A DNA stretch of 64,000 nt from a virus (lineage: Duplodnaviria > Caudoviricetes). A program made the position numbers and the translations under genes. The notes beneath the pieces were generated by a model. That model made no database searches. It saw only the letters and a list, made by a program, of their open reading frames with translations, and was not told the origin of the DNA. Location: positions 64,001 to 128,000 of IMG/VR virus record IMGVR_UViG_3300031993_000004; one strand, 5' to 3'. Below, in pieces: positions 12,623-31,214 of the stretch. Position 1 is the first letter of the stretch. Each line of letters starts with the position of its first letter.

Positions 12623-13454
12623 TGCCGAATTAATGCTGACTGCTATCCGTCAGGATGGTGAACGACTCCGGCACAAAAGATTTCATCTCAAATCTTTTGA
12701 TATGCCTGACATCAAAAGACAGTTTCCTGATGCGTACGAGACAAAGATCGGATACCAAAGACTGATCGAAGAAATCGGGCGGATCGAGTCGATCCGGGAT
12801 TTCGATGAACAGCATATTGACGATTATAAGAGAATCTCTGATACGGTCGATAAGATCGTGCGGGAACTGGATTTCACGGCCATTCAGACCGGTGATCACA
12901 TCCGAAATTTTGAATTTCCGGTATCTATTACCAGCGGCCTGGATGTGGATGACGAAGAATCTACACCCAATACGCTGACTGGTGTCATGTACCGGATCCG
13001 GCAAATCACATCCTGTAATTCTAGATCGGTATTTTATGCACCAGCCACATATTGTGGAATGGTGTTTGAATTTTCAATTCAGCATAAATACACAGCACTG
13101 AACGAACAGACCATTGTCAATTCCATATGGACAAGAGAAAAATATGACATCACTGGAATCAAGTTACTTATTTCAGCGATCCCGCTTGACAAAAGCGCAT
13201 TTCTTGAAGAGTGGTTGCCTGCACTGAATCTGGAGAAGAACTTGGGCTCAAAGGGCGCAAGGGTCATTTTTGCAATTGATCCGGAACGGGGAACCCTTGA
13301 ATACCCTGATAAGAACAGGCTTATCATTCCGGCGTGGAATTACTATAACCAGTCTGTTGCTGAAGGCCTGATTGACAACGCTGTAAAACATATCAGTGAG
13401 TCGTGCCTGGATGTTTTCTTTCCGAAGCCCGCATCTGAACCCGTCACCGAATAA
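12615..13454 (+). CDS. hypothetical protein
   Basis: 279 aa, AAGGAGG RBS. Confidence 0.7.
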   Translation: MHDAELMLTAIRQDGERLRHKRFHLKSFDMPDIKRQFPDAYETKIGYQRLIEEIGRIESIRDFDEQHIDDYKRISDTVDKIVRELDFTAIQTGDHIRNFEFPVSITSGLDVDDEESTPNTLTGVMYRIRQITSCNSRSVFYAPATYCGMVFEFSIQHKYTALNEQTIVNSIWTREKYDITGIKLLISAIPLDKSAFLEEWLPALNLEKNLGSKGARVIFAIDPERGTLEYPDKNRLIIPAWNYYNQSVAEGLIDNAVKHISESCLDVFFPKPASEPVTE

Positions 13455-13476
13455 AGAACCCCAAGGAGGAATCCAA

Positions 13477-14616
13477 ATGCCAGCCAAATACCTCAGACCA
13501 TCAAAACCGACATATTATCTAAGCTTTGCTGAAACCGCAGCAAGACGCTCCACTTGCTTGAAACGACGATATGGTGCGGTCATCGTTAAAGATGACCGCA
13601 TCATTTCAACCGGATACAATGGAGCGCCGCGTGGTCGGATAAATTGCGTTGAGATCGGGTGTCCGCGTTTGAATGTTCCAAACAATACAGAATACTCAAC
13701 ATGCCGGTCCGTCCATGCCGAAGCAAACGCAATGTTACACGCCGAATATACTGACATGATCGGATCGACATTATATCTGTATGGGTATGATGTCGTGAAA
13801 GACGAGCGTGTTAAAGATTGCGAACCATGTCCCATGTGTAAGCGCATGATCATTAATGCGCAAATCAAAGATGTCGTTGTATATGACAGAGATCTGAATG
13901 TCAAAACCTTTCATGTGAAGGACTGGACATTACCATGCAACGACGATTCCATTCCTGAGAAAGAACCGGAACTCTCCGATCCGGCGACGACGCCGTCCGA
14001 AGATACTCTGGACGTTGTTCTCATGAATAACGTTGAATCATCTAACGATGAAACAATACCATTTCTCGCGTCATCAAAACATCTTGAAGAGCTGATTGAG
14101 AAAGATCCCCAAACACAGATAACCGACGTGGATATATTGATGCGGTGTTACACGTTGTACCGCGATTCATTACGGTTTGCAATGTCAAATACGAACATGC
14201 CATTAGCATTGACAGAACTTTGTGTCTGCTTCTATGCTGGACACGGACATGTGGGCCTTGTAAATCAGAGTGCAATATCCAACTTCATGCTTGATTATGC
14301 GGGTAAAACGTTGCCTGCATATATTGATACATGTGTGCGAAATGCATTGTACAAATGCAGTCGATTCGAATGTGTCAATAACCGGTTGAGCTTTAGTTAT
14401 AATGGTAGATGGGGCGAAATCAGAAAGACAATTGATGCAACGGCTTACAAATATTTGCTTCCGGCAATTCGCGTCAGACGTGCGTTGTTACATGCAGGCT
14501 TCCTGGACGCAAATACCGAGAATCTATTGCTGAAGCTTCAGCGATATCTGAAGGAACGAAATGCGTTCCACGAAAGCACGCCGTGGGAACCCGGCATCCA
14601 ATATCCGATTTACTGA
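13477..14616 (+). CDS. dCMP deaminase with C-terminal extension
   Basis: ARRSTCLKRRYGAVIV..GYNGAPRG..HAEANA..PCPMC zinc-deaminase motifs in first ~155 aa; start moved to ATG 13477 after AAGGAGG. Confidence 0.88.
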   Translation: MPAKYLRPSKPTYYLSFAETAARRSTCLKRRYGAVIVKDDRIISTGYNGAPRGRINCVEIGCPRLNVPNNTEYSTCRSVHAEANAMLHAEYTDMIGSTLYLYGYDVVKDERVKDCEPCPMCKRMIINAQIKDVVVYDRDLNVKTFHVKDWTLPCNDDSIPEKEPELSDPATTPSEDTLDVVLMNNVESSNDETIPFLASSKHLEELIEKDPQTQITDVDILMRCYTLYRDSLRFAMSNTNMPLALTELCVCFYAGHGHVGLVNQSAISNFMLDYAGKTLPAYIDTCVRNALYKCSRFECVNNRLSFSYNGRWGEIRKTIDATAYKYLLPAIRVRRALLHAGFLDANTENLLLKLQRYLKERNAFHESTPWEPGIQYPIY

Positions 14617-14630
14617 TACAAATACTTGCA

Positions 14631-14652
14631 GTGCCCGCCATATGGCGGGCAT
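14631..14652 (+). promoter_or_regulatory. GC-rich hairpin immediately upstream of pentamer array 1
   Basis: TGCCCGCCATATGGCGGGCA palindrome without a T-tail. Confidence 0.5.
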
Positions 14653-14653
14653 T

Positions 14654-16697
14654 GTAATGTAATGGTACGGTATGGAAGAGTTCGGTAGGGTCTTGCTCCG
14701 TTCTGTGTGGGTGGAGTGCGCTGTAGTTCTGTTCCGTGTAGGTGAAGTGCACTGTAGTCCTGTTCGGTGCAGGTAAAGTCTGGGATGGTTCTGGTAAGTT
14801 TAGCAATGTGATTGCACGGTTAGGCAAACTGCCGCATTGTCTAGCTACGTATTGTGACTGTGGTGCTGCGGTTTCGCGATGTAACCTGTGGTATCGTATG
14901 GGCATGGTATCGTTGAATTCAGTAATGATTCGTTCGGCGATGTGATTGTGATGCGGTGTACCATACCGTCGCGTGGAGGTAGTGTGGGGCAGAGTGGTGA
15001 CGTGCATCGTTATGATATGTGAAGCAACTGTAAAGAGTCGTGGAGTATCGCTATGTCAAGGCAAGGCACAGTATTCTCTCGTCATGTCTCGTGGCGTCAA
15101 TGTAGTGTAGTATAGTGTGCCGTGGCGTAAAGGTACAGCGGGGCTTTGTCAAGTAATGTAACGGTAAAGTGGCGCGGTGTAAGGTCACATCGCGTTTTGT
15201 CACGTTGCGTTTCGGTAAAGTAATGTATTGTCTTGTATCGTTGGGGTGAGGTCCGGTAAGGTGCGTTATCGTAAGGCGGTGTGGCGTACAGTAAAGGTAC
15301 TGTAATGTCGGGCGCTGTCACGTTACGGCAAAGTGAATTCTGGTATGGTGACGTAACGTAAATGTTTCGTAATGTTTCATTTAGCAACGTAATGGCATAG
15401 TGAAGTCTGGTATGGTGCCGTGATGTAATGGCAAAGTGCTGTGAAGTTATGTATGGTAAAGGTATGGTTGCGTCCGGTAAGGCGCAGTAGTATATTGTGA
15501 CGTGAATGTAAGGTAAAGTGGGGTATGCTTATGTGAAGCAGCGACCCAGTAATTCAGTCACGGTATGGCGACGTAACGTAGAGTATCGTTACGTGGGGTT
15601 ATGGCAAAGTGTTGGTTAGCTTCGTACAGCTCAGTCATGCAACAGTGAGGTTTGGCAGGGTTGGGTAAAGTCATGTAAAGGCAGGGTGAGGTGTGGCAGA
15701 ATAACGTGTGGCAATGTCACGTAACGGTGAAGAATGGTGCAGTGTTGAGTTGTTCCGTTAAGTGATGGCACGGTGTTGATTAGCTTCGTACAGCTCAGTC
15801 GCGCAACAGTGAAGTGAAGTAGCGCACGGTGGAGCTATGTAAAGGCAAGGCGGGGTGTGGCGTTGAACTGTTGAGCTCTGTCACTGTGAGGTGAGGCGTG
15901 GTAGCGAGCGTATGGCAATGCCTCGTAAGGTATTGGTATGGTATGGCTGTGTCTCGCAGAGTGATGGTTAAGTGATGTTGTGTTGAGTGTTGTATCGTTT
16001 GGCCATGGCATGGTGTCGTATCGTATGGTCACGGTCGGTTCTGTAAAGGCAAAGTACGTTGTCGTCTGGTGGAGTCTCGTGGTGTCAATGTAGTGTAGTG
16101 CTCAGCGATGTCAGGTTACGGTAACGGTACGGTGCTGTTTGGTAGAGCTTAGTTTAGTAAAGGTACAGCATGGTTATGTACTGATTGATTGAGTAATGCG
16201 CTGTAATGGCATGGTTCGGTCCGGTCCTCTCCTGTTATGTAATGGCATGGTGGAATGTTGTGACGTAATGCCACGTAAGGTCTTGCAACGCAATTGTACA
16301 GCATTGTCTGGTCTAGTGCGGCCAAGTGCTGTCTGGTCTCGGTATGGTATATTCCAGTCACGATCTTTGCGGTTAGGTGTTGTGTTGTAAAGGTGCGGCA
16401 GGGTTGCGCGAGGTGCCGTTGCGTAATGCTTCGTGAGGTAATTGTACAACATTGTCTAGTTTTGGTATGGCGTAGAGACGTTCCGTAACGGTGATGTGAT
16501 GTGTAGTTCCGTCGGGTATAGTAAAGGTATGGTTCTGCGAGGTGTTCTGAAGTATTGTGAGGTCAGGTCTAGGTAAGGTAATACATCGTAAGATGCAGAA
16601 CTGTCTGGGGATGGTACAGCACATCAAAGTTATGTACTGCAAAGTTGTGTCTCGGCGCAGCTCAGTGACGATCCGCTTTGTGAAGTAACCTGAAGTT
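14654..16697 (+). repeat. non-coding degenerate pentamer (GY-NNN) array 1, candidate guide-RNA array
   Basis: From 15122: GTGGC GTAAAG GTACA GCGGG GCTTT GTCAA GTAAT GTAACG GTAAA GTGGC GCGGT GTAAG...; ~2 kb with no credible ORF. Confidence 0.9.
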
Positions 16698-16710
16698 CAG
16701 ATTTGAAAAA

Positions 16711-16741
16711 AGATGGGGCGCATCACGCCCCATCTTTTTTC
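16711..16741 (+). terminator. intrinsic terminator ending array 1
   Basis: AGATGGGGCG-CATCA-CGCCCCATCT plus TTTTT. Confidence 0.8.
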
Positions 16742-16766: not shown

Positions 16767-16836
16767 AGGGAATGGGATTTCAAAATCTCATTAAGCTTTA
16801 TTCCGTACGGAATCGAATCAGAAAGTGAGGAGAAAA

Positions 16837-18255
16837 ATGAGCAACCCAATCAAAAAGCGCATTGAAAAAATTGCTGACACATGCGCAATGTCAGCAGAGC
16901 ACTATCCGTTGCTGGAAAACTGGTTTCAGTGCACAGCAGAAACTGCTCGCGAGATTGAACGCTCGCAAATCAAATCTCTCGAAGAATTTGACAGCGTGGC
17001 ACTGGCATTGTCGGCACTGAGATCGGACATTCCAATCATTGACCGGTCCACTTTGAATGAAGGTATCGATGCATTACGGTCTGCATGCGCCAGATATTCG
17101 TCAGCCACCGATGAATTCTCTCCGTTCAACGCGTTAATTGCGCAGTCGTGCAATACGTTGATCGTTGTGGGTGAAGAGATCATCGGAGCACTCACCAATC
17201 TCAAAATTCTTGAGATTGCACTCGGCATCGGCACAATGGTCCCACGTGATGCTCCGGAAGAAGACGTGGCGACAACGGAACAGGAAAAAATCGAACAGAT
17301 TTGTTCCGCACCGGTACCGGCTGAAATCACCGTCACTTTACCGGCATCAGATAAGACTATCGTTCTTTCACAATGTGATGCAACTATTCTCGAACCCATC
17401 TTTGCCCAGAGAGAACAGGAACTGCAGGAGCCGATTCCGGAAGAAGACGCGGCGGCAACGGAACAGGAAAAAATCGAACAGATTTGTTCTGCACCGGCTG
17501 ACGAATGTGAGGAAAACAGTGGCTATACTGTTTTCGGAATTCCGATCGAGCAAATCGGAGTATCCCAGGAAGAAATCAAACGTGTTACAACAGATATTCC
17601 AGATCCGCCGAAGCCTAAGAAGAAACCCAATGAACCACGTAAAGTGGGAGTGCTGGATGTCCCGACTGGGTTTACCGCGCTCAAAGTTCCGGGTTTCCCG
17701 GATGACAGATTCATGTTGTCTGTAGATAATCAAATCGTTGACCGTCGGACAGGGCGGAAGATCAAAGCAACTCTCAGACACGGGGTTGAATATGTCAAGC
17801 TTTTCCATCCGAGAGATGAACATGGGGAACAACAGTTTGTCGAGTTCCCGCTCGCGGATCTGATCTCAAAATCTACATCTACAGCGGCATTGCCGCTTCC
17901 GAAACCTGCAATGACGGAGGAAAAAGACGACACATTTGTGTACGTCGATTGGTTTCCAGGAATACCTGCTCGGAAATATAAGGTATATGCCTCAGGAAAG
18001 GTATACGATACTGTACACAAAGAGTTTATACCCTATGACAGGAAGAACGAGTCTATTCGACTTACAGATTCGGATATCGAATCCCGCACGATTGGGGTTC
18101 ATGCGGTTGTCAAGGCGCTGAAACGGCAGTCACTCGTATGGCAGGCTTTCCATAAAGAATACCGGAATCAATCCAGGGTGTACATCTCTTTCAGAGATGG
18201 AAACAGACAGAATTGTGCACTCGACAATCTGTATATCGGAAGATCTGCAAAATAA
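16837..18255 (+). CDS. protein with NUMOD4-like motifs and degenerate HNH domain
   Basis: LKVPGFPDDRFMLS and VDWFPGIPARKYKVYASGKV (NUMOD4-like); LVWQAF...ISFRDGNRQNCALDNL (HNH_3-like, His absent). Confidence 0.6.
   Translation: MSNPIKKRIEKIADTCAMSAEHYPLLENWFQCTAETAREIERSQIKSLEEFDSVALALSALRSDIPIIDRSTLNEGIDALRSACARYSSATDEFSPFNALIAQSCNTLIVVGEEIIGALTNLKILEIALGIGTMVPRDAPEEDVATTEQEKIEQICSAPVPAEITVTLPASDKTIVLSQCDATILEPIFAQREQELQEPIPEEDAAATEQEKIEQICSAPADECEENSGYTVFGIPIEQIGVSQEEIKRVTTDIPDPPKPKKKPNEPRKVGVLDVPTGFTALKVPGFPDDRFMLSVDNQIVDRRTGRKIKATLRHGVEYVKLFHPRDEHGEQQFVEFPLADLISKSTSTAALPLPKPAMTEEKDDTFVYVDWFPGIPARKYKVYASGKVYDTVHKEFIPYDRKNESIRLTDSDIESRTIGVHAVVKALKRQSLVWQAFHKEYRNQSRVYISFRDGNRQNCALDNLYIGRSAK
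17253..17497 (+). repeat. 62-bp intragenic direct repeat (17253-17314 and 17436-17497)
   Basis: Both encode PEED(V/A)A(T/A)TEQEKIEQICSAP; 3 nucleotide mismatches. Confidence 0.9.
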
Positions 18256-19263: not shown

Positions 19264-19305
19264 TATAATTGCCCATATGTACAACATGTATGTATGGGCA
19301 AAGAT

Positions 19306-19376
19306 GGGTTCGTAGTTTAATGGCAAAACAACGGTCTCCAAAACCGTTGATTGGGGTTCGATTCCCTGCGGACCTG
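19306..19376 (+). tRNA. tRNA-Trp(CCA)
   Basis: GGGTTCG/CGGACCT acceptor; ACGGT-CTCCAAA-ACCGT; TTCGATT T-loop. Confidence 0.9.
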
Positions 19377-19474
19377 TCAAAATAAAAGGGAGTTAAGTCG
19401 TGGCGGTTTGAATCTGCTTTTAAGGTTCGGAGTGTACCGCACCACGCTAGCCCAAAGTCCATAAACACTCATCT

Positions 19475-19558
19475 GCTGGTGTGGCGAAATCGGCAGACGC
19501 AGTAGACTCAAAATCTACCGGTGGCGATACCATGTGGGTTCGAGTCCCACCACCAGCA
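19475..19558 (+). tRNA. tRNA-Leu(CAA)
   Basis: GCTGGTG/CACCAGC; GTAGA-CTCAAAA-TCTAC; long variable arm. Confidence 0.93.
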
Positions 19559-19560
19559 TT

Positions 19561-19645
19561 CATCACAGGAGATGAGAAGTTCCAGCACTTCTTCGTGGTC
19601 CCTCAATGAAACTGCGTAGTTTAAGGGTAAAACCCCCTGTGTTGA
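19561..19645 (+). ncRNA. circularly permuted tRNA-like RNA (YrlA-like topology)
   Basis: T-arm and 3' acceptor strand precede 5' acceptor strand and D-arm; closed by CACAGG/CCTGTG. Confidence 0.45.
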
Positions 19646-19706
19646 TTCAAGGCGACATATCATGGTCTGGTGGTGGCAAAAGATGACACAGAAAAGGAGA
19701 AACGGT

Positions 19707-20066
19707 ATGGAACTGAAAAGACAAATGCCCGAGCAGCATGATGTTGTGACATTCTATATTAACAGCGATGAGTTTAACACCATGATGCTCAATCATACTG
19801 CAAACGAGTTTGTTGCGCAACGACTCAATGGCATTGCGATCAAAGAGAATGATCTGATTGTCATATATGTCGATCGCGGACAAACGCACAATCTGTCGGC
19901 AGAGCTGATGAAACAATTGATGAAATCCCTTGTCGATCAGCTTGGCTGCAAAGTTATATGCATGCCAGCTGTCGCACATCTCTCGGTTGAATCCAAAAAG
20001 GATTTCATTAATATGCTGAGAGAAACTATCATATATCTTGAAAAAGGCGATGACGAAAATAATTGA
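19707..20066 (+). CDS. hypothetical protein
   Basis: Start moved to ATG 19707 after AAAGGAG. Confidence 0.7.
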   Translation: MELKRQMPEQHDVVTFYINSDEFNTMMLNHTANEFVAQRLNGIAIKENDLIVIYVDRGQTHNLSAELMKQLMKSLVDQLGCKVICMPAVAHLSVESKKDFINMLRETIIYLEKGDDENN

Positions 20067-20204
20067 GAGCGATTGGCGATAGTGCGTGAATCGCGGTGGT
20101 ATGTTGTGTGGAACTAATTTCCAGGGGAGTTTCGATTCCAGACGAGGATCCTGGAGAAATAGAATGTCGAGGCCGTAAGATCTAGAAGCACATCATATTG
20201 TCAT

Positions 20205-20347
20205 CATTACCTCGTATGCAAGTGGTCAAAAGCAGTCTACCTTTGGTAGGTAGAGAAGACTCTCCACCCGGGATATCCGGCCGGGTATCGGGTTAAAACT
20301 CGCAATCGCGAGGGGGAGTACGCGGGTTCGAATCCCGCCGGGTAATG
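20205..20347 (+). ncRNA. enlarged tRNA-like RNA
   Basis: CATTACC/GGTAATG closing stem, D-like AAGTGGTCAAA, T arm GCGGG-TTCGAAT-CCCGC, ~60-nt branched variable region, no 7-nt anticodon loop. Confidence 0.55.
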
Positions 20348-20367
20348 TTGCTCAATTCTATATAGGC

Positions 20368-20440
20368 CGGGGTGTAGCGCAGTTGGTAGCGCGCCTGCTT
20401 TGGGAGCAGGATGCCGCAGGTTCGAATCCTGTCACTCCGA
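20368..20440 (+). tRNA. tRNA-Pro(TGG)
   Basis: CGGGGTG/CACTCCG; CCTGC-TTTGGGA-GCAGG. Confidence 0.95.
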
Positions 20441-20448
20441 TTTCCCAT

Positions 20449-20532
20449 GCTACTGTGGCGAAATTGGCAGACGCAAGAGACTTAAAATCTCTCGGTGGAT
20501 ACATCTTGTGGGTTCAAGTCCCATCGGTAGCA
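20449..20532 (+). tRNA. tRNA-Leu(TAA)
   Basis: GCTACTG/CGGTAGC; AGAGA-CTTAAAA-TCTCT. Confidence 0.92.
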
Positions 20533-20587
20533 TTCAAAGGCACTTACAGCAATTCTCAAATAATGATGAATGAACGATGTGCCTTGA

Positions 20588-20665
20588 GGTGAAGTAGCTC
20601 AGGTGGTAGAGCGTCGGGAGTGTAACTCCTGCAGGGATGTTAGGTTCGAGCCCTAACCTTCACCA
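20588..20665 (+). tRNA. atypical tRNA, anticodon probably GTA (Tyr-reading)
   Basis: GGTGAAG/CTTCACC; canonical D and T arms; CGGGA-GTGTAAC-TCCTG with non-standard spacing and no long variable arm. Confidence 0.55.
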
Positions 20666-20782
20666 TCCACGTCCTGTCGGAACCTGTGTACGCAGGCCAA
20701 TTCCACAAATAAAAGGATATACGGCGCCAAATGACCGTGACGGTCATGTATATCCCTCTCGGCAGGCTCCGTGGTGCCATAT

Positions 20783-20860
20783 GCCAGTGTAGCTCAGTTG
20801 GTCGTTAAGAGCAGCTCCTTCATACGGAGAAGGTCGGTGGTTCGAATCCACTCATTGGCA
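20783..20860 (+). tRNA. tRNA-Met(CAT)
   Basis: GCCAGTG/CATTGGC; CTCC-TTCATAC-GGAG; Met versus Ile2 not certain. Confidence 0.8.
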
Positions 20861-20872
20861 TTCATTTTTTCA

Positions 20873-21450
20873 TCAATTGAGTAGTAAACAAAAGCCCATT
20901 CAAAGGATGGGTAAGCTTTACCAAGGAAATCGTTGCAGTGCACAAGGATAAGAGTATTGCGATATGCTGCATTCCTAGTATCGGACGAGTACGAAACCTT
21001 GGTTGTGTCATTGGCGCTATTAAGAAGCGTCTTCCCGAAAAGAGCCTCAACGTAAGATCCAGTAGAAGAATCCATAGTCTGGTGCATATCTCGGTCTGTG
21101 GATTGCGATGTAACTGGTGGGAAAAGGATGATACGGGAATCTCCTGAGTAGTGGCGAGCGAAAGGGATCCACAAGAGAGCATGGGGACACGATCCGAACA
21201 CGTGCTTGTGAGTGGTCAAAATCGCCCTGGAAACGGGCATGGGCAGTTATGAAAGATGATGAAAAGATGGCGACGGTTGTGTGCAGTCCAGACCATTTGG
21301 TTGGCGTGGGATACTAAGGAATCACCAGACTGCATATGAACCTAGATTGTTGTGTAAGCGGGAACGCACTGGCCACCTAGCGAGCCAGGTATACCGGAGG
21401 ATTCCGGCGAACATAATTGAAGTGAGACGCTCTATAATCTACACAACAAT
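20873..21450 (+). ncRNA. large structured ncRNA, ROOL-like
   Basis: ~580 nt, non-coding, between tRNAs; TCAATTG (20873) pairs TAATTGA (21414), crossing the 11-bp helix ATTGTTGTGTA (21346)/TACACAACAAT (21440); AGTA/GAA motifs. Confidence 0.55.
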
Positions 21451-21451
21451 T

Positions 21452-21527
21452 GGGGCTGGGCAGGAACACACGTGGCCAGGGTGGCGTTACGACGTTGCCT
21501 TACGGGTTCGAATCCCGTCACAGCTCT
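21452..21527 (+). ncRNA. degenerate tRNA-like element
   Basis: GGGGCTG/CAGCTCT stem and T arm ACGGG-TTCGAAT-CCCGT, but no canonical D or anticodon arm. Confidence 0.45.
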
Positions 21528-21530
21528 TCT

Positions 21531-21603
21531 GACTCGGTAGCCAAGAGGCAAGGCAAGGGAGTGCAAATCCTAGATGCGTCGTGTTCGAATCCGACCCGAG
21601 TCT
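21531..21603 (+). tRNA. tRNA-Cys(GCA), slightly atypical
   Basis: GACTCGG/CCGAGTC; GGA-GTGCAAA-TCC; bulged T stem. Confidence 0.7.
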
Positions 21604-21610
21604 TTTTTTT

Positions 21611-21686
21611 GGGGTATTAGCTCAGACTGGATCAGAGCACCTCCCTTCTAAGGAGGGTGTCGTGGGTTCGAATCCTACATACCCCA
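21611..21686 (+). tRNA. tRNA-Arg(TCT)
   Basis: GGGGTAT/ATACCCC; CCTCC-CTTCTAA-GGAGG. Confidence 0.93.
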
Positions 21687-21704
21687 TTCAACATTCCGAA
21701 ATTT

Positions 21705-27307: not shown

Positions 27308-28093
27308 GTCTAGTTTGGGTAAAGTGCTGCGAGGCGCAGTATGGTCGTGGTGTTGCACGGTCCAGTATGACATTGTTTTGTCGAGCAACTGTATAGCGGT
27401 GTATTGTCAGGTTTTGGTACTGTGGCGTTAGGTTCAGCACGGTCTCGTCTGGTACTGGTTTAGTATTGCCGAGCAGCGCAACGTATAATGCAGTGACGGT
27501 GTAGTCATGTCTGATGTGGTCGAGTCAAGTCAAGGTTAAGCTGCGTTCGGTGCAGGTGCCGTTCAGTTGTGGTGTAGTCGAGGTTTGGTAAAGTACTGTA
27601 CAGCTAAGTATCGTCAATGTGTTGTCAAGAACGGTTCCGTGATGTTAAGGTTAGGATACGTGCCGTATGATACCGTGAAGGTATGGTGCAATGAGCTCAA
27701 GTGTTGTTATGACACGTGCATTTCTGTAAAGGTTAAGCTCTGTGACGCATTGCATCTCGTGATTGTAAAGGAAAGTGTCATGCAGAACAGTGCAGCGTAG
27801 TTTCTGTGCTGTTATATCTTGTCCAGCGTGGTTAAGGTCGGGTACGGTCCCGCATTGTTCTGTTTGGTAATGTAATAGCGTAGTACAGTTAGGTTGTGTT
27901 ACGTAGAGCAACTGCATAGTGATCTGATGTAGGGTCGTGTCACGGTCGGTGATGTAATGTACAGCATAGGTATAGTTCCGTATAGTATCGTTCAGCCATG
28001 TTCAGTTGCGGTAGAGTAAAGTTGAGCGACGTGTGGTAGGGTAACGGTGGAGTGTTGTGTTGTCACGTGAAGTCAAGTAATAGTAATGGTAAA
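27308..28093 (+). repeat. degenerate pentamer (GY-NNN) array 2
   Basis: GTCTA GTTTGG GTAAA GTGCT GCGAG GCGCA GTATG...; same grammar as array 1; starts 2 nt after the upstream stop. Confidence 0.9.
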
Positions 28094-28268: not shown

Positions 28269-29033
28269 ATGGCAAACAAGAAAGACGCTGCAGAAGCAGC
28301 AGCAACAACCACCACGGTCGAGAAGAAGGCACCTGCGAAAAAGAAGGCAAAATCTGATGGGCCTCAAAAGTATTACATGACGACAGTTGAGGTAACTTTC
28401 ACGAACGAGCTTCTGGCCACCAACAGCGCGGATCCGGATATCTATTCCGCGTATCTCGCGTCACTCGCAAGTGACGAAGACCGCAAGGCGGAACTCGAGC
28501 GTCTCGGCCTCGCAGAGGTTGATGAGAAGGGTATGACGGTTTTCCTCAGAAACAAGGAAAACCCGATGATCCCTCAGCTCAAGGCATATACATGGCTCGG
28601 GTTCCTCAAGGCCCGCAGCCGTGCACAGGCAAAGATCGACGGAAATCCGATCGTTGGAATGACCGCATATATCAAAGAAATCGATGACCGCATTGCGGTA
28701 TCTCCGAAATTCATTGATCTGGAGCTCCCGGAAGGAGCAGCTGTTGACACTCTGCAGCGTCCGCTTCGTGCGCAAACCATGCAGGGTGACCGTGTCGCTC
28801 TCGCAAAGTCTGAGACTGTTCCGGCTGGCACAAAGTGCCGCTTTACCTTCAGAACCGAAACTCTTGAAGGTATGAAGCTTGTTGAAGCCTGCCTCAGATA
28901 CGGCGCTATCCATGGTACAGGCCAGTGGAGGAATGCCGGTTACGGCACCTTCACATATAAGATCATCGATAGATGGTCGGAGGTCGAAGAGCCGATCGTT
29001 CTGTCTGAAGAGGACTTCCCTGTCCGCGCATAA
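28269..29033 (+). CDS. stand-alone Cas7/Csm3-like RAMP-fold protein (Vipr-like candidate RNA-guided effector)
   Basis: VEVTFTNELLAT (beta1), PQLKAYTWLGFLKAR, SETVPAGTKCRFTF, C-terminal G-rich loop YGAIHGTGQWRNAGYGTF; AAAAGGAG RBS; flanked by pentamer arrays. Confidence 0.75.
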   Translation: MANKKDAAEAAATTTTVEKKAPAKKKAKSDGPQKYYMTTVEVTFTNELLATNSADPDIYSAYLASLASDEDRKAELERLGLAEVDEKGMTVFLRNKENPMIPQLKAYTWLGFLKARSRAQAKIDGNPIVGMTAYIKEIDDRIAVSPKFIDLELPEGAAVDTLQRPLRAQTMQGDRVALAKSETVPAGTKCRFTFRTETLEGMKLVEACLRYGAIHGTGQWRNAGYGTFTYKIIDRWSEVEEPIVLSEEDFPVRA

Positions 29034-29097: not shown

Positions 29098-29425
29098 GCT
29101 TAACAGTAACGGCACAGTTTCGCGGGGTCAAGTGCAGTCCAGTCGTGGTATGGCATTGTTTACTAATGTCTCGTGGAGTTTTGGCATGGTGTGGTTTCGC
29201 TGTGTGGCGTGCTGTCAAGGCAGGGTATTGTACTATGACGCATTGTCGCGTATTGGTTACGTAATGTGAGACATGGTTATGTGTCGTAAAGGCATTGTGG
29301 AGTACGGTAATGTTGTGCTTAGTCATGTTATGGTATAGCAGCGGTTGGTGAGGTGTTGCTGTGTGGCGTTTCGGTATTGTGATGTTCCGTGTCGTGGAGC
29401 AGAGTAATTGTGACATCACTGTATA
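29098..29425 (+). repeat. degenerate pentamer (GY-NNN) array 3
   Basis: GTAACG GCACA GTTTC GCGGG GTCAA GTGCA GTCCA GTCGTG GTATG GCATT...; directly downstream of the RAMP gene. Confidence 0.88.
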
Positions 29426-29436
29426 CCATATAATAT

Positions 29437-29556
29437 TCCGGGATGGTGGAACTGGCAGACACAGCGCCTGGCTAATAGTGGTTATTCACTGGCGAAAACG
29501 CGAGGTTTGGCGAATAACCGAACCAAATCATCTGGGTTCAAATCCCAGTCTCGGAT
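29437..29556 (+). ncRNA. Leu-type tRNA-like RNA with expanded anticodon region and internal 8-bp complementarity
   Basis: TCCGGGA/TCTCGGA; D arm GGTGGAACTGGCAGACAC; CTGGG-TTCAAAT-CCCAG; GGTTATTC (29480) complements GAATAACC (29512). Confidence 0.6.
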
Positions 29557-29677: not shown

Positions 29678-29751
29678 GGGCCTCTAGCTCAGACGGTTAG
29701 AGCAGTGGACTCATAATCCATTGGTCCAGGGTTCGAGTCCCTGGGGGCCCA
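29678..29751 (+). tRNA. tRNA-Ile2/Met(CAT)
   Basis: GGGCCTC/GGGGCCC; GTGGA-CTCATAA-TCCAT; body resembles lysidine tRNA-Ile2. Confidence 0.85.
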
Positions 29752-29794
29752 TCATCTATATAATTAGCGAAGGGGAGTACAACATAATATTTGA

Positions 29795-29880
29795 GGAGAG
29801 GTGTCCGAGTGGCTTAAGGAGCCAGTCTTGAAAACTGGTGATACGGAAACGTACCGTGGGTTCAAATCCCACTCTCTCCG
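29795..29880 (+). tRNA. tRNA-Ser(TGA)
   Basis: GGAGAGG/TCTCTCC; CCAGT-CTTGAAA-ACTGG; long variable arm. Confidence 0.95.
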
Positions 29881-30376
29881 TCAAACTCTAAGACGTCTGA
29901 TTTCGCAGACGCGTGCTTCCTTTTCGGCTTTAAACCGCCTGGCATGCCGATTCATGACCAGGTATAAAAAACAGTCCGTGTGTATCGAAACCGGCCAATG
30001 ATCTTAGGCCGGATCGCGCCCGCCGCCTGCAGATCGCGGCATTGAGCTCTTATCTCCGTGAGAGTTGGCGCTACTATGTGAGAGACACGGACTACCGCTG
30101 GGGTTTACATAAATGCGGTTTACCCAGCACCAGCTTATTGCCAGAGGCAACAGCTGCCGGCTTTGCTGTTGTCTTTGCTCAGATAAGGGCCTAGTATTCA
30201 GGAATTTACAAAGCGGGTTATGCTTATTGAGGTTTCAGAGAGCGCCGCAATGGATGCGCTTGAAGATGTCGTTCATCTCTAAATCCAATGTGTTCATGTT
30301 GCGGAAGCACAACAACAACCACAACGACCACAGATGCTCGGCTTCCCCGCTAAAGAATATGAAAAACGCTCAATTT

Positions 30377-30448
30377 GCACGTGTCGTACAGTGGGCAGTA
30401 TACCAGCCTTCCAAGCTGGGGATGAGGGTTCAATTCCCTTCACGTGCT
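30377..30448 (+). tRNA. tRNA-Gly(TCC)
   Basis: GCACGTG/CACGTGC; CCAGC-CTTCCAA-GCTGG. Confidence 0.92.
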
Positions 30449-30722
30449 TCGACGATGATGGTTTGATTTCTGACATTTACGGGTTATGTATTAACCGGTC
30501 GATGTATTGACAGATACATATGGCAGAATGATACTATCACCGTCGCACTCCGTATAAACCGTAGGGGTAGAGGCACCCACCCCTGCGGTTTTGCTCTTTA
30601 CTGTAAATTCTTGCAGTTTGTCCATTCTGCAAGGATCTGCATGAAGATACCTCCAGACGCGCAGGAGTTCTCACGCTAGCTAAGAGGACTCCTGCACTGC
30701 GTCGCCTGAGAAAGGAGAAACT

Positions 30723-30989
30723 ATGAATGATGATCTCAAAAAATGCTTGACAAGCGTTGCAGCATTGATCGCAATATTCATTCTCTGCTCTGCGCTCGGA
30801 TCATGTTGCACAGAGCAGGATATACGTGATTACACGTATATCTATGTCGATGGACAACAATACATGACATCAGATATTGTTGACATAAGTTATATCCCTC
30901 TCCGCTACGGCAATGACGCCGTGACATTCAAGCTCAAAGACGGAACTGTTATACGCACACAATCTAATGATTATACTCTCAGCAATTAA
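30723..30989 (+). CDS. small membrane/lipoprotein-like protein
   Basis: 88 aa, AAAGGAG RBS, N-terminal hydrophobic helix ending LGSCC. Confidence 0.65.
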   Translation: MNDDLKKCLTSVAALIAIFILCSALGSCCTEQDIRDYTYIYVDGQQYMTSDIVDISYIPLRYGNDAVTFKLKDGTVIRTQSNDYTLSN

Positions 30990-31001
30990 GCGTTTCCATA
31001 T

Positions 31002-31073
31002 TGGAGTATGGCCAAGCGGCAAGGCATCAGACTTTGACTCTGACACGCGCTGGTTCGAATCCAGCTACTCCAA
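31002..31073 (+). tRNA. tRNA-Gln(TTG)
   Basis: TGGAGTA/TACTCCA; TCAGA-CTTTGAC-TCTGA. Confidence 0.93.
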
Positions 31074-31214
31074 CTCAATATCTTTTATCTCGGCACCAAA
31101 TGATTTTTCAACACTCGTTTTGGTGCGCAGTCTTCACTTTCTATACTGATTTCATTTGATTTCAGTTGTCCACGGTTTCGACATCTTCCGTGGACATTCT
31201 TTTTTAAGAAATAT

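What the first reader, a model, noticed from the sequence alone, without database searches (positions are those of the whole stretch)
14654..16697. 2-kb orphan pentamer array about 11.5 kb from the RAMP gene
Seen: roughly 400 GY-NNN units on the same strand and with the same grammar as arrays 2 and 3. It is bracketed by a hairpin (14631-14652) and a strong terminator (16711-16741) downstream of the dCMP deaminase operon. It is not a microsatellite, because the NNN positions are highly diverse while the GY phase is kept. Inference: a large trans-acting guide library for the RAMP protein, transcribed by read-through from the upstream operon.
Basis: partly seen in the sequence, partly recalled or inferred. 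Interest (0 to 1): 0.88.

Follow-up and report, generated by a model that had tools for sequence, protein, structure and literature searches.

The report
Phage VIPR guides spelling prophage DNA
This 2-kb stretch of a jumbo phage is a library of about 54 short guide RNAs for a CRISPR-related (VIPR) protein; deleting two fixed letters from every five spells out unbroken DNA of a rival Ruminococcus prophage, a reading rule not described for VIPR before.

Summary
The array is real: 398 units, GY-NNN pentamers cut into about 54 blocks by single hexamers, in a 277-kb phage with one Cas7-fold gene 11.6 kb away. It resembles the 'staggered' YNNNG VIPR arrays of 2026 preprints; this scan noted such arrays in other genomes, targets unknown. 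New here: targets and code. Removing each GY gives contiguous target DNA. Block 15246-15296 matches 26/27 bases of the ssDNA-binding gene of a Ruminococcus flavefaciens prophage. Across four related phages, 19 of 213 guides hit that prophage family's early operon (p<=0.01; 2 expected). Other prophages, host chromosome and self gave no enrichment. With sites chosen on two N positions only, the third matches 63-78% against 19-29% in controls, so the base that canonical VIPR skips is encoded. The two residues that read that G in SUSP1 Vipr (H17, D177) are replaced (T51, Q219). Whether the third base pairs or only records how guides are copied is untested, as is transcription. About 50 of this array's blocks have no target yet. 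New variant of a known kind.

The parts
14654..16697 (+). Guide array 1: 398 units, GY-NNN pentamers in about 54 blocks separated by hexamers
15246..15296 (+). Guide block (9 pentamers + hexamer); decoded, it matches 26/27 nt of the PF10991 ssDNA-binding gene of a R. flavefaciens FD-1 prophage
14742..14772 (+). Guide block; probable target in the prophage phrog_13787 early gene (14/15 nt, out of codon frame)
   Evidence: p=0.005
15328..15363 (+). Guide block; probable target 1.6 kb upstream of the SSB gene (16/18 nt)
   Evidence: p=0.01
15681..15726 (+). Guide block; probable target over the ribosome-binding site and start of an early prophage gene (20/24 nt); a related guide sits in another phage's vipr-proximal array
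   Evidence: p=0.003
14623..14661 (+). 5' hairpin (17 bp), no U-tract, overlaps the first unit
16705..16741 (+). Intrinsic terminator (16-bp stem); a G+C hairpin follows the orthologous arrays too
13396..14616 (+). dCMP deaminase, last gene of the upstream operon; the array follows it in three phages
28269..29033 (+). Single RAMP (Vipr-like) gene, 254 aa, Cas7/Csm3 fold, G-loop GQWR
27308..28081 (+). Guide array 2; blocks 27650 (prophage Dit gene, 15/15, antisense) and 28011 (17/18) have targets
29112..29408 (+). Guide array 3; block 29148 has a target (17/18) in the prophage early region

Best explanation
The array is the largest of three guide libraries of a VIPR-type system in a jumbo phage whose host is probably a Ruminococcus. 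It is transcribed (inferred) and yields about 54 guides of 5-10 pentamers, each closed by a hexamer. The single RAMP binds one pentamer per subunit (inferred from SUSP1 structures) and holds GY out of the duplex. The three N bases of successive units spell a contiguous 15-30-nt DNA target (shown by sequence matches). The position that is the fixed G1 in canonical GGY/NN guides has become a target-specifying base opposite the base that SUSP1 skips. That it base-pairs is inferred, about 60:40. The filament would sit on early-operon, replication and tail genes of a resident temperate phage and block its transcription, so that the prophage cannot compete during infection (inferred from SUSP1). Odds: VIPR-type guide array 0.95; contiguous triplet encoding 0.95; the window's RAMP is the partner 0.9; third base pairs 0.6.
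For: Targets: (47 loci; best locus 8/9 free third bases); five whole proviruses, 20 guides at score >=12 against 1.6 in unit-shuffled controls; loci found by HMM only, 11 against 0 at score >=15; gapped alternatives NN0, NNxx, NNNx and NNNxx are at control level; 19/213 guides at p<=0.01, 19 of 23 on the coding strand; a fifth phage has a guide to the same Dit site. Held-out third base 63-78% against 19-29%, p<=1.3e-9. Mismatches by position are 3/7/6 in 101 units; only 6 of 11 sense coding hits are wobble-aligned, and in the 5 out-of-frame hits the third base matches 32/32. Decoded strings keep TpA depletion across the GY and are enriched for Shine-Dalgarno words, 35 against 21.2, p=0.004. 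Protein: Cas7 fold, E 3e-8; end-to-end profile alignment to the SUSP1 Vipr family, E 2.5e-4, puts T51 and Q219 on H17 and D177, the G1 readers, and keeps W/R. Negative sets are flat.
Against: No RNA or binding data. Only 1 block of this array has a certain target and 3 a probable one; about 50 have none (searches found only chance hits or nothing). N5 is the most polymorphic N among strains (21 against 6 and 11). The one mismatch of block 15246 is at N5 in all 47 loci. The protein alignment is weak (probability 43%) and the thumb is not aligned. No vap gene or 3' tail was identified. The host is inferred only from the targets.
Confidence: 0.62

Rival explanations
1. Same system and targets, but the canonical 1-nt-skip mechanism: N5 stays unpaired and matches the target only because guides are copied from target DNA with GY inserted, and N5 then drifts slowly.
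For: In SUSP1 the skipped target base is flipped into a protein pocket. N5 is the most variable N in strains. Block 15246 carries a non-synonymous N5 mismatch in all loci.
Against: N5 transitions (13) are well below those of the Y (32). N5 matches as well as N4 in confident hits (6 against 7 mismatches, though these hits were chosen on all three positions). There is little wobble alignment, against nearly 90% reported for canonical vipr-targeting guides. N5 is identical in all 7 units of a guide shared by phages with 72% Vipr identity, while GY differs at 5 of 14.
Confidence: 0.27
2. The array is an orphan or decoy guide set meant for another element's Vipr, not for the RAMP in this genome.
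For: It lies 11.6 kb from the gene; orphan vrRNAs are described.
Against: Same grammar and hexamer as the arrays flanking the gene. Same target family. A guide here has a relative in a vipr-proximal array of another phage. No array was seen in any fetched prophage or host locus; vipr genes were not searched for there.
Confidence: 0.05
3. The guides act on RNA (mRNA binding) rather than on double-stranded DNA.
For: The fold is closest to the RNA-targeting Cas7/Csm3; SUSP1 Vipr can pair with RNA in vitro.
Against: 19 of 23 early-operon hits have the same sense as the mRNA and cannot pair with it. Some hits are intergenic and both strands occur.
Confidence: 0.04
4. Degenerate minisatellite or non-functional low-complexity DNA.
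For: Some internal duplications; arrays diverge about six times faster than the vipr gene.
Against: Decoded blocks match foreign DNA far above controls. Four target-matched guides showed a single allele among the strains compared.
Confidence: 0.01

Closest known systems
VIPR systems, SUSP1 / P. fulva type II (bioRxiv 10.64898/2026.04.26.720920, .720927; 10.64898/2026.10.15.759431)
   Same: Phage-encoded stand-alone RAMP; 5-nt repeat guides reading 3 nt of DNA per unit; targets on either strand of resident prophages, concentrated in early and regulatory regions; no self-targets.
   Different: The unit is GY/NNN, not GGY/NN; the skipped base is encoded; little wobble alignment; about 54 tail-less guides of 5-10 units in one array (about 85 in the genome) against 3-4 tailed guides of 9-16 units; H17/D177 replaced; no vap gene identified.
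VIPR variants with YNNNG consensus and 'staggered' arrays (same preprint, Methods and Fig. S17-S18)
   Same: YNNNG is GY-NNN in another phase; a 1-nt stagger between successive guides fits the hexamers.
   Different: The text gives no targets or decoding rule for these. Later mapping modelled units only as three fixed plus two free bases (10.64898/2026.10.21.760802). The figures could not be seen, so identity with their example is unverified.
Class 1 CRISPR Cas7/Csm3 backbones
   Same: RAMP fold with thumb and G-loop; the target is a contiguous DNA word.
   Different: No repeat-spacer array; the guide is interrupted every 3 nt by GY; one RAMP gene only.

Membership tests
VIPR | Stand-alone RAMP with G-loop and thumb in a virus, outside a CRISPR locus | tested here: met
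   Model pLDDT 80, Foldseek Cas7/Csm3 E 2.6e-8; one copy in a 277-kb virus record
VIPR | Homology to a characterised Vipr | tested here: inconclusive
   Profile-profile against the SUSP1 family: 169 columns, E 2.5e-4, probability 43%; beta1 and G-loop align, thumb does not
VIPR | Pentamer tandem-repeat non-coding arrays next to the gene (GGY/NN or a related consensus such as YNNNG) | tested here: met
   Arrays 2 and 3 flank the gene; GY-NNN = YNNNG
VIPR (canonical type II) | Fixed GGY motif | tested here: not met
   G at that position in only 27% of pentamers, 0.01 bit
VIPR (canonical type II) | 1-nt skip: the skipped target base is not encoded in the guide | tested here: not met
   The 5-nt to 3-nt spacing holds, but the held-out third base matches 63-78% against 19-29%
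VIPR (canonical type II) | Conserved structured 3' tail on each guide | tested here: not met
   Blocks abut through a 6-nt unit; windows of the array fold like shuffles, z from +1.1 to -2.5
VIPR | Natural targets in competing mobile elements, none in self | tested here: met
   self flat
VIPR | vap accessory gene | tested here: inconclusive
   Neighbours have no convincing Pfam match and differ between relatives
VIPR | Guides are expressed, bind the protein and repress transcription | not testable with these tools
CRISPR-Cas class 1 | Repeat-spacer array with cas operon | tested here: not met
   No constant repeat in the array; the only RAMP homolog found in the genome is this gene; cas1 was not searched for

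The most novel reading that the evidence does not exclude
This clade uses a fully paired triplet code (two bulged guide bases per three DNA pairs), and its guides are written by a templated process that copies foreign DNA three bases at a time and inserts GY. That would be an acquisition or rewriting step for VIPR, which no paper read here describes. The strain-level 26/27 match including synonymous bases, and the clumped sixfold-faster divergence of arrays, would be its footprint.
Probability: 0.3. Interest if true: 0.92.

Novelty: new variant of a known kind. Interest (0 to 1): 0.76.

Why it matters
VIPR's defining novelty is a gapped code that ignores every third base, explained as protection against wobble escape. 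Here a Vipr clade (more than 100 proteins with T/S51 and Q219) appears to encode all three bases, with a matching change in the two residues that read the lost G. This gives a direct, cheap test of how the code can shift, and an intermediate toward contiguous CRISPR-like reading. Because the guides retain the full target sequence, they can be decoded like spacers: they name the likely host and rivals of uncultured rumen-type jumbo phages. They also constrain how VIPR guides are acquired, which is an open question.

Tried and rejected
Self-targeting under 16 rules, and again under the contiguous rule: control level. Other Ruminococcus prophage regions (about 370 kb), 400 kb of one Ruminococcus chromosome, and fetched parts of related jumbo phages: no enrichment. 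Collection scans for blocks 28011, 15553, 15164, 16393 and 15604/15768, and genus searches for 16527 and 15604/15768: none or chance hits. The scan for block 15681 gave three generic ribosome-binding sites. A first held-out test on 590 kb was too unspecific (3 guides) and was redone on single prophages. Host by tRNA identity was inconclusive, at most 92%. Protein coding of the array and Rfam families were rejected. No close strain of this phage could be read, so strain statistics come from a related phage. No complex prediction was run, since the open question is RNA-DNA pairing.

Full report
Observation. The region has lag-5 identity 0.439 against 0.270 +/- 0.009 in shuffles. A dynamic-programming parse gives 398 units, of which 343 are pentamers and 53 hexamers; the Fourier peak is at 5.125. 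Pentamers are G (92%), Y (95%), then three nearly free bases (0.10, 0.04, 0.01 bit). Hexamers are GYnAnG and fall every 5-10 units, giving about 54 blocks. The window lies in a 277,583-bp virus record that has exactly three such arrays, all in this window, and one RAMP gene at 28269-29033. A 17-bp hairpin without U-tract precedes the array and a strong terminator follows it.

Conservation. About 25 close homologs of the RAMP (39-72% identity) exist, several on contigs of 260-295 kb. Two related phages carry a GY-NNN array at the same place, between the dCMP deaminase and the next gene, 583 and 904 bp long and unrelated in most blocks. A 39% homolog in a smaller phage contig has the same grammar. 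Between two strains the arrays differ by 10.6% and the gene by 1.6%, with differences clumped by block; four guides with identified or probable targets showed a single allele.

Known background. VIPR systems pair a stand-alone RAMP with GGY/NN guides that read DNA with a 1-nt skip. YNNNG variants and staggered arrays are mentioned without a decoding rule (10.64898/2026.04.26.720920). In SUSP1 Vipr, H17 and D177 read G1, W178 stacks G2 and R179 holds Y3, and the skipped target base is flipped out (10.64898/2026.04.26.720927). A search of 2026 papers found four on VIPR; in the passages read, none describes a code in which three bases are read. Earlier notes of this scan filed similar arrays as staggered VIPR, two of them stating that targets were unknown, and none holds a decoded target.

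The code. Deleting GY and joining the triplets gave natural-looking DNA. Shine-Dalgarno words are enriched (35 against 21.2, p=0.004), and the dinucleotide bias (TpA 0.72) continues from N5 to the next N3. A scan of IMG/VR fixing only N3 and N4 of block 15246 returned 47 loci, all in one gene, the PF10991 ssDNA-binding protein. The best locus matches 26/27 bases, including 8 of 9 third bases that were free in the scan; the hexamer does not match. The same site occurs in Ruminococcus genomes, with no further mismatch in R. flavefaciens FD-1, and 32 of 161 genomes of that genus carry the gene. The element is a temperate phage with a sigma-like gene, phrog_408, an exonuclease, SSB, a methyltransferase and Dit.

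Independent confirmation. Guides that played no part in finding these loci converge on them. In five whole proviruses, 20 guides score >=12 under the contiguous rule against 1.6 in unit-shuffled controls, and rules with other spacings are at control level. In loci chosen by HMM alone, 11 against 0 score >=15. In the 5 kb around the SSB gene, 19 of 213 guides reach p<=0.01 (2 expected; one is the circular 15246), 19 of 23 hits on the coding strand. From this array these are blocks 15246, 15681, 14742 and 15328; the last three are probable, not certain. A fifth phage adds a guide to a Dit site already hit by another. Other prophages, host chromosome, self and relatives show nothing. With sites chosen on N3+N4 only, N5 matches 41/65, 36/48 and 28/36 against 19-29% in controls; the three zones share guides, so these are not three independent tests. 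Among 15 confident hits the mismatches are 3, 7, 6 by position. Six of 11 sense coding hits are wobble-aligned, and in the five that are not, N5 matches 32/32. Hexamers match their targets only about 40%, and the preceding hexamer does not match upstream, so blocks are separate guides.

Protein. The model (pLDDT 80) matches Cas7 and Csm3. Profile alignment to the SUSP1 family is weak but end-to-end (E 2.5e-4). H17 (95/105) faces T/S51 (112/112), D177 (91/105) faces Q219 (110/112), and W178/R179 are kept as W220/R221. Loss of both G1 readers fits a freed position. This link is inferred from a low-probability alignment.

Mechanism. Shown: array anatomy, synteny, contiguous triplet encoding, target family, constraint on N. 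Inferred: transcription by read-through, processing at hexamers, binding by this RAMP in trans, one subunit per pentamer, transcriptional blocking of the prophage, Ruminococcus as host. Open: whether N5 pairs (0.6) or is a copy-derived vestige (0.3-0.4). N5 is more polymorphic than N3 and N4 but has fewer transitions than the Y (13 against 32), which fits weaker pairing, tracking of target wobble, or slow drift.

Verdict. It works like a VIPR and very probably is one, of the YNNNG staggered kind, but it fails three features of the canonical type. The decoding rule and targets appear to be new. About 50 of 54 blocks remain unassigned and nothing is tested at the bench. New variant of a known kind; interest 0.76.

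Noticed in passing
window 16747, 21702, 23124, 28144 (+), 61712 (-); genome 240656 (-): A 20-nt AT-rich motif occurs six times in the genome, including just after arrays 1 and 2 and before the RAMP gene; probably a phage promoter.
   Followed up: partly
window 15604-15644 and 15768-15808; 15061-15132 and 16049-16120: Duplicated guide blocks inside the array, one a two-block duplication, diverged mostly at their ends; no target found.
   Followed up: partly
window 29435-29555: A tRNA-Leu-like sequence not called by ARAGORN or Rfam directly follows array 3; a normal-looking tRNA follows the matching array in L002. It could supply a processing site.
   Followed up: no
window 19305-21687 and 29678-31074: Eleven to twelve tRNA genes lie between and after the arrays.
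   Followed up: no
window 16825-18255: The gene after the array has a weak C-terminal HNH match and is syntenic in two relatives; a link to the system is untested.
   Followed up: no
L008:6243-7337: A tubulin (PhuZ-like) gene lies near the vipr gene in one related jumbo phage.
   Followed up: no
L218:4353-5246: A sigma70 region 4 / RNA polymerase alpha-CTD protein follows vipr in a fifth phage; possible accessory gene.
   Followed up: no
window 27619-27649 and L002:8628-8668: Guides from two phages hit the same prophage site on opposite strands.
   Followed up: partly
L008 vs L009 arrays: Strain differences are clumped by guide (overdispersion 4.8), some blocks changed at 10-16 positions and others at none; suggests block-wise rewriting.
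   Followed up: partly
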